From NCBI RefSeq assembly GCF_000017185.1, contig NC_009635.1:248563-312562 (forward strand): a stretch of DNA of 64,000 nt. Reading direction: 5' to 3'. The DNA comes from Methanococcus aeolicus Nankai-3 (GTDB lineage: Archaea > AGJL01 > Methanococci > Methanococcales > Methanococcaceae). The stretch is not shown here. Below, a report on this DNA, generated by a model with database tools, continues.

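What the first reader, a model, noticed from the sequence alone, without database searches (positions are those of the whole stretch)
2505..63505. GGAGCTCC is a highly iterated 8-bp palindrome (about 55 copies in 64 kb) in a very AT-rich genome
By eye I located GGAGCTCC starting at these positions: 2505, 2739, 2829, 5142, 5986, 6262, 6322, 6574, 7281, 7867, 9583, 9652, 11329, 11840, 14876, 19525, 20714, 20839, 21282, 21943, 22165, 22204, 24517, 24838, 25273, 25779, 26765, 26975, 27438, 27993, 28262, 29097, 31290, 32572, 33189, 34038, 35141, 35273, 36598, 42719, 48219, 49250, 51980, 52220, 53077, 53709, 55235, 56987, 57414, 59661, 61189, 62458, 62810, 63163, 63498. About 12 further GAGCTC cores have one flank changed (for example 2446, 8931, 12753, 14248, 26499, 28285, 29655, 32438, 33101, 52980, 55775, 62561).

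The G+C content is roughly 30% (my estimate, not computed). At that composition, an 8-mer with six G/C positions is expected well under once in 64 kb.

The motif is read in all three frames:
- GGA-GCT-CCn as Gly-Ala-Pro, in LeuRS, ProRS, aIF2-gamma (three times), archaellins, FlaI, PpsA, Rpo7 and AtwA.
- nGG-AGC-TCC as x-Ser-Ser, in shikimate kinase, CbiL, RFA-P synthase and PpsA.
- G-GAG-CTC-C as Glu-Leu-x, in many minus-strand genes.

It also occurs in spacers. Using GAG/CTC/GCT/TCC codons where this genome otherwise prefers A/T-ending codons argues for selection, or a biased conversion process, acting on the DNA word rather than on a peptide.

The density of about 1 per 1.2 kb resembles cyanobacterial HIP1 (GCGATCGC) or the uptake sequences of Neisseria and Haemophilus. 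Methanococci are naturally transformable, so a DNA-uptake or self-recognition tag is one hypothesis. A methyltransferase- or repair-driven HIP-like process is another. I know of no description of such an element in Methanococcales.
Basis: partly seen in the sequence, partly recalled or inferred. Interest (0 to 1): 0.9.

Follow-up and report, generated by a model that had tools for sequence, protein, structure and literature searches.

The report, continued
Best explanation
GGAGCTCC is a lineage-specific, hyper-abundant genomic word of Methanococcus aeolicus and its closest sister species. It is an archaeal analogue of the cyanobacterial highly iterated palindrome HIP1 and of bacterial DNA-uptake sequences. 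It is an 8-bp dialect of a hexamer word, GAGCTC, that is enriched in the related Methanothermococcus okinawensis/Ax23 group.

Shown:
- The word is a DNA-level signal, independent of reading frame, gene and flanking sequence.
- It is installed by synonymous and non-synonymous changes.
- Once present it is kept far better than other GC-rich words.
- It also accumulates on a resident plasmid.
- It can be absent, or purged, in very close relatives.

Inferred:
- A palindromic word with a sharp, lineage-variable specificity implies a trans-acting, probably dimeric, sequence-specific protein.
- The per-site force is strong enough to override purifying selection on conserved proteins, yet the word is dispensable. 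This points to molecular drive: DNA carrying the word is favoured when DNA is exchanged, recombined or repaired between genome copies or cells. Such a signal could be an uptake, processing or recombination signal, as in USS/DUS and as now proposed for HIP1.
- When the protein's specificity lengthened from 6 to 8 bp in the M. aeolicus lineage, old sites either acquired G...C flanks or decayed.

That it is a real DNA-level HIP-like word with dialects I hold at about 0.95. The exchange/recombination-drive mechanism I hold at about 0.4.
For: Enrichment:
- 55 observed against 0.09-0.6 expected.
- 42 coding copies against 3.0 from the codon shuffle.
- 13 intergenic copies against 0.01.
- Single-mismatch variants have 0-3 copies each.
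- Flanks of different copies are unrelated: 8.9 of 30 bases match, 8.7 expected.

Codon cost:
- CTC is 4% of Leu codons, and 18 of the 62 CTC codons lie in the word.
- Glu-Leu is written GAGCTC 23 times out of 151, against about 1.3 expected.

Protein cost:
- aIF2-gamma: PEP, D/N-LP and GEP became GAP.
- LeuRS: DK(N/S) became GAP.
- Flank completion changed I, F, Y or V to L.

Maintenance:
- 14 of 16 alignable sites are identical in a sister species about 90% identical. In the L085 comparison 10 of 12 were identical, against 28% for GC-rich 8-mers (P about 1e-4). Flanks are at background identity.
- In the hexamer clade, 11 of 12 GAGCTC sites are shared between M. okinawensis IH1 and Ax23, against 32% for controls (P = 3e-5).

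Dialects and their spread:
- The hexamer with any flanks is enriched 15-25-fold in L001, L002/L182 (Ax23) and L183 (IH1), about 10-fold in L115 and 6-fold in L100.
- Sites shared between the clades differ only in the flanks.

Trans action: plasmid pMETOK01 has 13 GAGCTC against 0.63 expected.

Dispensability and patchiness:
- The L184/L105 lineage lacks the word.
- L110 has replaced all 11 AGCT sites of L002 at only 12% divergence.

Segments likely to be accessory lack the word: window 15.4-19.2 kb, and the integrase island of PL15/Hp. Uptake sequences behave the same way (PMC2817400).

Further parallels in the literature: density, frame use, proteome effects and dialects of USS/DUS (PMC2817400, PMC3630211), and HIP1 enhancing transformation (10.1101/2024.09.10.611283; 10.64898/2026.06.24.733823). 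Methanococcus maripaludis is naturally transformable (PMC10133366).
Against: - No uptake, transformation or binding data exist for M. aeolicus or M. okinawensis.
- A 21-kb sample of the competent species M. maripaludis has no such word, so transformation in the genus does not need one.
- Known uptake sequences are asymmetric and 9-12 nt long; this word is an 8-bp palindrome identical in its core to a classical type II restriction site.
- The extreme AGCT avoidance in sister lineages points to restriction-modification traffic on exactly this sequence family.
- The three non-shared sites differ at 4-5 of 8 bases, with no one-off intermediates. A stepwise drive with such steep specificity does not readily produce this.
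- Spacing is Poisson-like (CV 1.14), so there is no sign of a spacing requirement.
- No candidate protein was identified.
Confidence: 0.4

Rival explanations
1. A methyltransferase- or mismatch-repair-driven ratchet, as Elhai proposed for HIP sequences or as Dcm/Vsr very-short-patch repair works in E. coli. A GAGCTC- or GGAGCTCC-specific cytosine methyltransferase marks the site. A coupled repair activity restores, or creates, the site from near-cognate mismatches, so the word accumulates as a by-product.
For: - The core is a classical type II palindrome (GAGCTC, with AGCT at its centre).
- Related lineages show extreme AGCT avoidance, so enzymes that read this sequence circulate in the clade.
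- The distribution is patchy and switches fast, which is typical of mobile restriction-modification genes.
- Going from a 6-bp core to G+core+C parallels CGATCG to GCGATCGC in Elhai's model (PMC4390886).
- 11 of the 13 base differences at the three non-shared sites are transitions between A/T and G/C, although the background transition share is already 69%.
- Point-mutated copies are essentially never seen aligned to a motif, as active restoration would predict.
- The plasmid is enriched too, as expected for an intracellular process.
Against: - SMRT methylome of M. aeolicus PL15/Hp found only m4C CTAG, m6A GTNAC, GCACY and CGAG, plus m5C ACGT assigned by homology. All methyltransferase genes found were assigned, and none to GAGCTC (PMC10113651).
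- 5-methylcytosine was not assayed, and one methyltransferase (M.MaeIII) had been missed by annotation, so this is not a proof of absence.
- No DNA methyltransferase is encoded in the window.
- Recognition sites of the known M. aeolicus restriction systems are strongly avoided, not enriched: ACGT observed/expected 0.01, CTAG 0.19, GTNAC 0.30.
- From my own knowledge, known repair-driven biases are below about 2-fold, not hundreds-fold.
- A one-mismatch ratchet does not explain 4-7-base replacements.
Confidence: 0.15
2. Directly selected binding sites: each copy serves a cellular function for the chromosome (nucleoid organisation, replication, repair or segregation) through an abundant DNA-binding protein, and ordinary selection maintains it. 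This is what Xu et al. argued for HIP1.
For: - Site-specific conservation well above matched controls in two clades, with flanks at background divergence.
- Similar density (about 0.9-1.6 per kb) whatever the length of the word.
- HIP1 conservation has been read as evidence of selection (PMC5861425).
Against: - The word is dispensable. The nearest outgroup lineage (L184/L105) has none, and L110 has purged every AGCT at 12% divergence from a GAGCTC-rich relative.
- Spacing fits an exponential distribution, with no regularity.
- The benefit of any one of an estimated 1,300 sites or more should be tiny, yet sites displaced conserved residues of aIF2-gamma and LeuRS.
- A plasmid is equally enriched.
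Confidence: 0.15
3. An RNA-level signal: because the word is a palindrome, every transcript that crosses it carries GGAGCUCC, which could be read by a ribonuclease or an RNA-binding protein.
For: A palindrome gives the same RNA word whichever way a gene is transcribed. 42 of the 55 copies are in coding sequence.
Against: - Per base, spacers are at least as rich as genes (13 copies in 11.7 kb against 42 in 52.3 kb), including divergent promoter regions.
- There is no positional preference within genes.
- Rfam finds no RNA family other than one tRNA.
- No evidence for an RNA role was found for HIP1 either (PMC5861425).
Confidence: 0.05
4. Not a signal at all: a by-product of base composition, codon usage, a conserved peptide, or a dispersed repeat or mobile element.
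For: Three copies (35141, 35273, 36588) are paralogous, sharing a 17-mer in the archaellin genes. Glu-Leu, Gly-Ala and Ser-Ser are common dipeptides.
Against: - All null models fail by 14- to 600-fold.
- Orthologues in AT-rich relatives lack the codon strings.
- Flanks of different copies are unrelated.
- The intergenic excess is more than 1000-fold.
Confidence: 0.01

Closest known systems
HIP1 (GCGATCGC) and alternate highly iterated palindromes of cyanobacteria
   Same: - A GC-rich palindromic octamer built as G + 6-bp type-II-like core + C.
- Density is 859 copies per Mb here, against 300-2700 per Mb for HIP1. Observed/expected is about 90-600 here, against 15-300 (PMC4390886, PMC5861425).
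- It lies in all frames and in spacers, and is conserved between related genomes above neutral expectation.
- Related genomes carry replaced or derived words.
   Different: - The host is an archaeon with 30% G+C, and the word is different.
- No cognate methyltransferase or methylation is known; the published methylome lacks it.
- One-off variants are rare here but common for HIP1.
- Turnover is all-or-none.
- 10-90-kb periodicity cannot be tested in 64 kb.
- Sister lineages show the opposite extreme, AGCT avoidance.
DNA uptake sequences (USS of Pasteurellaceae, DUS of Neisseriaceae)
   Same: - About one copy per kb.
- Sharp specificity.
- Lineage-specific dialects (PMC3630211).
- Copies inside genes in several frames, with measurable effects on the proteome.
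- Absence from genes that lack homologues in relatives (PMC2817400).
- A molecular-drive logic that can override weak purifying selection.
   Different: - USS and DUS are asymmetric 9-12-mers read by a pilus-associated receptor in demonstrably competent bacteria.
- Here the word is a palindromic 8-mer (or 6-mer).
- Competence of the host is unknown.
- Uptake sequences sit preferentially at poorly conserved residues, whereas here conserved residues of aIF2-gamma were replaced.
Type II restriction-modification sites (SacI/Ecl136II GAGCTC; AluI AGCT)
   Same: The hexamer is identical to the SacI site and its centre to the AluI site. Specificity shifts of 4, 6 and 8 bp and a patchy phylogenetic distribution are typical of such systems.
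   Different: Restriction targets are avoided in host genomes, as ACGT, CTAG and GTNAC are in this very window. This word is enriched hundreds of times, and no matching enzyme or modification is reported for M. aeolicus.
NTS repeats read by the single-strand nuclease SsnA in Neisseria
   Same: A short sequence present in hundreds of copies, read by a dedicated sequence-specific protein that modulates natural transformation (PMC11893778).
   Different: NTS is a longer, structured repeat found around particular genes rather than an 8-mer inside coding sequence. No Ssn-like gene was examined here.
Dcm/Vsr very-short-patch repair bias in E. coli (my own knowledge: Bhagwat and McClelland 1992; Merkl et al. 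1992)
   Same: A repair activity tied to a palindromic methylation site that converts near-cognate sequences into the site and shifts oligonucleotide abundances.
   Different: The effect is small, it acts only on single T:G mismatches, and it needs a 5-methylcytosine methyltransferase, which is not known here.

Membership tests
Highly iterated palindromes (HIP1-type) | A short palindrome, typically an octamer, hyper-abundant against composition-aware expectation (15-300-fold; 300-2700 per Mb) | tested here: met
   55 copies in 64 kb = 859 per Mb. Observed/expected is 609 (order 0), 146 (order 2) and 90 (order 3 with the motif masked). It is the top 8-mer.
Highly iterated palindromes (HIP1-type) | Present in coding sequence in all frames and in non-coding DNA; not explained by a peptide | tested here: met
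   Frames 15/9/18 plus 13 intergenic copies. The codon shuffle gives 3.0 against 42 observed. Orthologues lack the word.
Highly iterated palindromes (HIP1-type) | Sites conserved between related genomes more than matched control words | tested here: met
   14 of 16 sites against 28% for GC-rich 8-mers. 11 of 12 against 32% in the hexamer clade.
Highly iterated palindromes (HIP1-type) | A cognate, usually orphan, DNA methyltransferase that recognises the core and is co-distributed with the word | tested here: inconclusive
   No DNA methyltransferase in the window. The published PL15/Hp methylome and gene inventory has no GAGCTC motif or unassigned methyltransferase, but m5C was not assayed (PMC10113651). 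Whole genomes could not be scanned.
Highly iterated palindromes (HIP1-type) | Quasi-periodic distribution along the chromosome (10-90 kb) | not testable with these tools
   Only 64 kb is available. Local spacing fits an exponential distribution, CV 1.14.
DNA uptake sequences (USS/DUS) | Hundreds to thousands of copies at about 1 per kb, with lineage-specific dialects | tested here: met
   0.86 per kb here and 1.0-1.6 per kb for GAGCTC in relatives. There is an octamer dialect and a hexamer dialect.
DNA uptake sequences (USS/DUS) | Asymmetric 9-12-nt sequence | tested here: not met
   The word is a perfect 8-bp palindrome. Flanks add only a weak G/C preference at -1/+1.
DNA uptake sequences (USS/DUS) | Accumulates in resident DNA and is lacking in recently acquired genes | tested here: inconclusive
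   No copies in window 15.4-19.2 kb (absent from the sister species) or in the 1.4-kb integrase island of PL15/Hp. But the conserved flaC-flaJ genes are also poor in three lineages. Samples are small.
DNA uptake sequences (USS/DUS) | A competent host whose uptake machinery prefers DNA carrying the word | not testable with these tools
   This needs uptake or transformation assays. Competence is documented only for M. maripaludis (PMC10133366), which shows no such word in 21 kb.
Type II restriction-modification target | The recognition site is under-represented in the host genome | tested here: not met
   The word is enriched. Known Mae sites are depleted in the same window: ACGT 2 observed against 177 expected, CTAG 0.19, GTNAC 0.30.
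Type II restriction-modification target | Cognate endonuclease and methyltransferase genes present | tested here: inconclusive
   None in the window and none reported for PL15/Hp.
Dispersed repeat / MITE / REP element | Copies share sequence beyond the core | tested here: not met
   Pairwise flank identity is 8.9 of 30 against 8.7 expected. No position beyond -1/+1 exceeds 56% of one base.

The most novel reading that the evidence does not exclude
The word is not merely favoured after arising by point mutation. It is actively written into resident DNA (chromosome and plasmid) by a sequence-directed, multi-nucleotide conversion process tied to a protein whose specificity evolves (AGCT-related, then GAGCTC, then GGAGCTCC). 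Sites would then flip all-or-none between an AT-rich state and the perfect palindrome, which could make it a self-marking system of polyploid archaea with no described counterpart.

The evidence does not exclude this:
- The three non-shared sites between 90%-identical species differ at 4-5 of 8 bases, with near-background flanks (P about 2e-5).
- A Ser codon switched family (TCA to AGC).
- Words conserved in eight other lineages (GATAAAAA/G) were replaced wholesale.
Probability: 0.15. Interest if true: 0.95.

Novelty: new variant of a known kind. Interest (0 to 1): 0.78.

Why it matters
Hyper-abundant short words (HIP1, USS, DUS) are among the clearest cases in which something other than protein function shapes genome sequence. 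How HIP1 works has been debated for thirty years.

An independent example in Archaea would show the phenomenon is not peculiar to cyanobacteria or to two proteobacterial families. This one has three features that make it useful:
- The host is cultivable, and a complete genome and a published methylome already exist.
- Cultivated relatives carry a shorter dialect.
- Near relatives show the opposite extreme (AGCT almost absent).

The natural series of no word, hexamer, octamer and AGCT-free genomes within one small clade is close to an ideal design for finding the responsible protein by phylogenetic profiling. It also allows a direct test of whether such words mark self DNA for exchange or recombination in polyploid archaea.

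There are practical consequences too:
- The word is a sharp lineage signature for spotting foreign or chimeric DNA in vent metagenomes.
- SacI-type sites about once per kb affect cloning, and perhaps the design of transformation experiments, for these methanogens.

Tried and rejected
- Peptide or codon explanation. Rejected by the codon shuffle and by orthologue comparison.
- Dispersed repeat or MITE. Rejected; the flanks are unrelated.
- Regular spacing or a 3-periodic signal. Gaps fit an exponential distribution (CV 1.14, KS p = 0.86).
- Position within genes or type of spacer. No preference.
- Longer palindrome or terminator hairpins. There is only a weak extension in spacers (position +/-1 paired in 69% of copies against 29% by chance) and none in genes.
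- A low- or high-divergence halo around shared sites, which would suggest a recombination hotspot or import tract. There is none. Flanks of the non-shared sites are only marginally more diverged (12 of 72 bases, P = 0.06).
- A DNA methyltransferase or restriction gene in the window. None was found; the only methyltransferase is a Trm5-type tRNA enzyme.
- The methyltransferase on plasmid pMETOK01. It is Type IIG/Eco57I-MmeI-like with a PLD-SNF2 helicase, so it is not a candidate for a palindromic cytosine site.
- Viruses. A scan for relatives of the PL15/Hp integrase found nothing. A scan of viral contigs for closely spaced motif pairs returned only unrelated contigs whose copies sit in short tandem coding repeats.
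- A deamination signature at GAGCTC/GAACTC in the hexamer clade. The synonymous GAA/GAG choice explains it.
- Polarity of the three non-shared sites. Only one has an outgroup sequence (26975). Parsimony favours a gain in M. aeolicus, but the outgroup lacks the system altogether, so gain followed by loss cannot be excluded.
- Whole-genome statistics, replichore analysis and gene-presence profiling could not be done, because only loci of at most about 23 kb can be fetched.

Full report
**1.
GGAGCTCC occurs exactly 55 times in the 64,000-base window. G+C is 30.1%. The octamer is the single most frequent 8-mer in the window, ahead of every A/T-only word.

Expected counts under the null models:

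| Null model | Expected | Observed |
|---|---|---|
| Dinucleotide shuffle | 0.16 | 55 |
| Markov order 0 / 1 / 2 | 0.09 / 0.17 / 0.38 | 55 |
| Markov order 3, motif masked from training | 0.61 | 55 |
| Synonymous-codon shuffle within each gene, coding copies only | 3.0 +/- 1.6 (max 8 in 1000) | 42 |
| Spacers, 11.7 kb at 23% G+C | 0.01 | 13 |

Higher-order Markov models only look better because the motif itself dominates their training counts. The codon shuffle keeps every protein sequence and reuses the motif's own codons, so it is a conservative test.

There are 12 further GAGCTC cores. Six have one flank changed and six have both. Every single-mismatch variant of the octamer has 0-3 copies, so specificity is very sharp.

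**2. Anatomy.**
- Coding copies use all three frames: 15 as GGA-GCT-CC (Gly-Ala-Pro), 9 as xGG-AGC-TCC (x-Ser-Ser) and 18 as xxG-GAG-CTC-C (Glu-Leu).
- CTC makes up 4% of Leu codons, and 18 of the 62 CTC codons are inside the word. Glu-Leu is written GAGCTC in 23 of 151 cases, against about 1.3 expected from codon usage.
- Flanks of different copies are unrelated: 8.9 of 30 positions match, with 8.7 expected by composition. Nothing beyond a G/C preference at -1/+1 and a mild T/A bias at -4/-5 is seen. This is not a dispersed repeat.
- In spacers the palindrome tends to extend by one pair; in genes it does not.
- Copies show no preference for a position within genes or for a type of spacer.
- Gaps between copies fit an exponential distribution (CV 1.14, KS p = 0.86).
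- The stretch 36.6-48.2 kb (archaellum operon and neighbours) has a single copy (P about 0.009), and 14.9-19.5 kb has none.
- Rfam and ARAGORN find only one tRNA-Ser.
- Pfam annotation of 50 of the 58 ORFs (eight archaellum-operon ORFs were not scanned) shows ordinary housekeeping genes, an archaellum operon and a small defence-like cluster, but no DNA methyltransferase or restriction enzyme.

**3. Whose DNA this is.**
- The aIF2-gamma protein is 100% identical to that of Methanococcus aeolicus.
- FlaI is 100% identical to both strains, Nankai-3 and PL15/Hp.
- A 21-kb stretch of the PL15/Hp chromosome (CP104873.1) is 99.97% identical over 16 kb. It carries an integrase insertion next to the tRNA-Ser that the window lacks.
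- So the window is M. aeolicus. That it is probably Nankai-3 is my inference.
- The same copies are present in the PacBio genome and in independent Logan assemblies, which excludes an assembly artefact.
- Extrapolated to a genome of 1.57-1.68 Mb, this would be roughly 1,300-1,450 copies (inference; not measured).

**4. The word is imposed on proteins, not dictated by them.**
In aIF2-gamma the three Gly-Ala-Pro sites of M. aeolicus and its sister species stand where other relatives have different residues:

| M. aeolicus and sister | Relatives |
|---|---|
| C-GAP-E | C-PEP-E/D in all but L184; L184 has an intermediate, CGTPE |
| E-GAP-A | mostly P-(D/N)LP-A; L184 has an intermediate, EDAPA |
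| A-GAP-G | A-GEP-G in all of them |

In LeuRS, eight more distant lineages keep GATAAAAA/G (Asp-Lys-Asn/Ser) where M. aeolicus has GGAGCTCC (Gly-Ala-Pro). All nine other lineages have TTGAAACA-like words where it has TGAGCTCC.

Where the peptide Ala-Glu-Leu is conserved, relatives without the word write GAA-CTT and M. aeolicus writes GAG-CTC.

In CbiL a conserved Ser changed codon family, TCA to AGC, which is three base changes.

Unrelated AT-rich relatives (G+C 24-31%) do not carry these codon strings.

**5. Once present, the word is kept.**
Metagenome contigs from a sister species about 90% identical at the DNA level (L085-L094, L102-L104) carry the same octamer at the same density.
- In the L085 comparison, 10 of 12 window sites are identical, against 44% of all 8-mers and 28% of 8-mers with at least five G/C (binomial P = 0.007 and 1e-4).
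- Adding the LeuRS contig L103 gives 14 of 16 alignable window sites identical.
- Sequence next to shared sites is at background identity, so it is the eight bases that are protected.
- The hexamer clade replicates this. M. okinawensis IH1 and strain Ax23 (85% identical) share 11 of 12 GAGCTC sites, against 32% for GC-rich hexamers (P = 3e-5).

**6. Turnover of the octamer is all-or-none.**
The three sites not shared between M. aeolicus and its sister (two only in the window, one only in the sister) differ at 4, 4 and 5 of 8 bases. Their flanks are only marginally more diverged than background (12 of 72 bases, P = 0.06).

Among GC-rich control 8-mers that changed at all, 2.7% changed at four or more positions. 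That gives about 2e-5 for three out of three. No motif is aligned to a one-off variant.

For the one such site with an outgroup sequence (26975), parsimony favours a gain in M. aeolicus (Trp-Ser-Ser, against Trp-Asn-Tyr in the sister and Trp-Glu-Leu in the outgroup). Because the outgroup lacks the system altogether, gain followed by loss cannot be excluded.

I regard this pattern as unexplained. It fits active restoration of slightly damaged copies combined with rare wholesale replacement. It does not exclude a process that writes the word in one step.

**7. Dialects and opposites in relatives.**

| State | Loci | Evidence |
|---|---|---|
| Hexamer GAGCTC enriched, no flank preference | L002 (Ax23): 36 in 22.9 kb against 1.4 expected; L182 (Ax23): 24 in 21.6 kb; L183 (M. 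okinawensis IH1): 21 in 21.6 kb; L001: 17 in 17.9 kb; L115 (deep branch): 16 against 1.5; L100: 11 against 1.8 | |
| Hexamer enriched on a plasmid | pMETOK01 of IH1 (14.9 kb, 26.8% G+C): 13 against 0.63 expected | |
| AGCT almost absent (0-5 copies against 7-56 expected) | L095, L097-L099, L003, L007, L110, L113, L114 | |
| No GAGCTC word and no AGCT avoidance | L184/L105, nearest outgroup of the octamer clade (24-27% G+C) | |

Sites shared between the hexamer clade and M. aeolicus keep the core but differ in the flanks. GGAGCTCA, CGAGCTCC, GGAGCTCT, CGAGCTCT and GGAGCTCG in the relatives are GGAGCTCC in M. aeolicus. Completing the flanks cost Ile, Phe, Tyr or Val to Leu and Ala to Gly replacements. 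Other hexamer sites have decayed in M. aeolicus (CGAGCTCA to TGAGTTAA, AGAGCTCA to AAAGTTCA).

L110 is 88% identical to Ax23, yet all 11 AGCT sites of Ax23 in the aligned 3.1 kb, six of them GAGCTC, are replaced.

On a LeuRS neighbour-joining tree the states are interleaved.

**8. What this implies.**
Three properties point to a trans-acting, sequence-specific, probably dimeric protein: the word is sharp and palindromic; its length differs between sister clades; and it acts on plasmid as well as chromosome.

The word can vanish in close relatives, which argues against an indispensable architectural role. The force also displaced conserved residues of aIF2-gamma and LeuRS, although any one of more than a thousand sites can matter little. 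Together these favour a drive (biased transmission, conversion or repair) over ordinary site-by-site selection. The same argument was made for uptake sequences (PMC2817400).

I therefore rank first a recognition word that biases DNA exchange, processing or recombination. This corresponds to USS/DUS (dialects: PMC3630211) and to the function now proposed for HIP1, which raises transformation efficiency and correlates with DNA-transfer machinery (10.1101/2024.09.10.611283; 10.64898/2026.06.24.733823). From my own knowledge, Methanococcales are highly polyploid and equalise their genome copies by gene conversion, which would give such a bias much opportunity to act.

Weak points of this reading:
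- Competence is shown for M. maripaludis (PMC10133366), not for M. aeolicus.
- A 21-kb sample of M. maripaludis has no comparable word.
- Known uptake sequences are not palindromes.

**9. The methyltransferase/repair rival.**
In its favour: the core is the SacI site and its centre is the AluI site; the AGCT-free relatives show that enzymes reading this family circulate in the clade; and Elhai's ratchet (CGATCG to GCGATCGC) has the same G+core+C geometry.

Against it:
- The SMRT methylome of M. aeolicus PL15/Hp lists m4C CTAG and m6A GTNAC, GCACY and CGAG, plus m5C ACGT assigned by homology. Every methyltransferase gene found was assigned (PMC10113651).
- The sites of those known systems are strongly avoided in this window: ACGT 2 observed against 177 expected, CTAG 0.19, GTNAC 0.30. 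GATC (0.18) and GTAC (0.22) are also avoided. That is the opposite of what GGAGCTCC does.
- m5C was not assayed, and one methyltransferase had escaped annotation, so the rival is weakened but not excluded.

**10. Comparison with what is known, and novelty.**
By density, over-representation, frame independence and conservation, this meets the descriptive definition of a highly iterated palindrome. The feature tied to mechanism, a cognate methyltransferase, is not shown, and periodicity cannot be tested in 64 kb. It behaves like an uptake sequence in density, dialects and proteome impact, but fails the asymmetry criterion. It is not a restriction target in the usual sense, because it is enriched.

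Full-text searches found no description of this word in Methanococcales or any archaeon. I searched for the octamer, for GAGCTC with Methanothermococcus, for iterated palindromes in archaea, for M. aeolicus with palindromes, and for over-represented GAGCTC in archaea. Neither the M. aeolicus methylome paper nor a survey of archaeal restriction-modification systems mentions it.

I class it as a new variant of a known kind: a HIP/USS-like word in Archaea, with a hexamer-to-octamer dialect series and an AGCT-avoiding counter-state in the same small clade.

**11. Limits.**
- All statistics come from one 64-kb window plus loci of at most about 23 kb.
- No whole-genome counts, replichore analysis or gene-presence profiling were possible.
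- The sister species and several relatives are metagenome contigs. Two of them (L104, L106) are mosaics of octamer-type and hexamer-type segments that may be assembly chimeras.
- The all-or-none result rests on three events.
- No candidate protein was identified.

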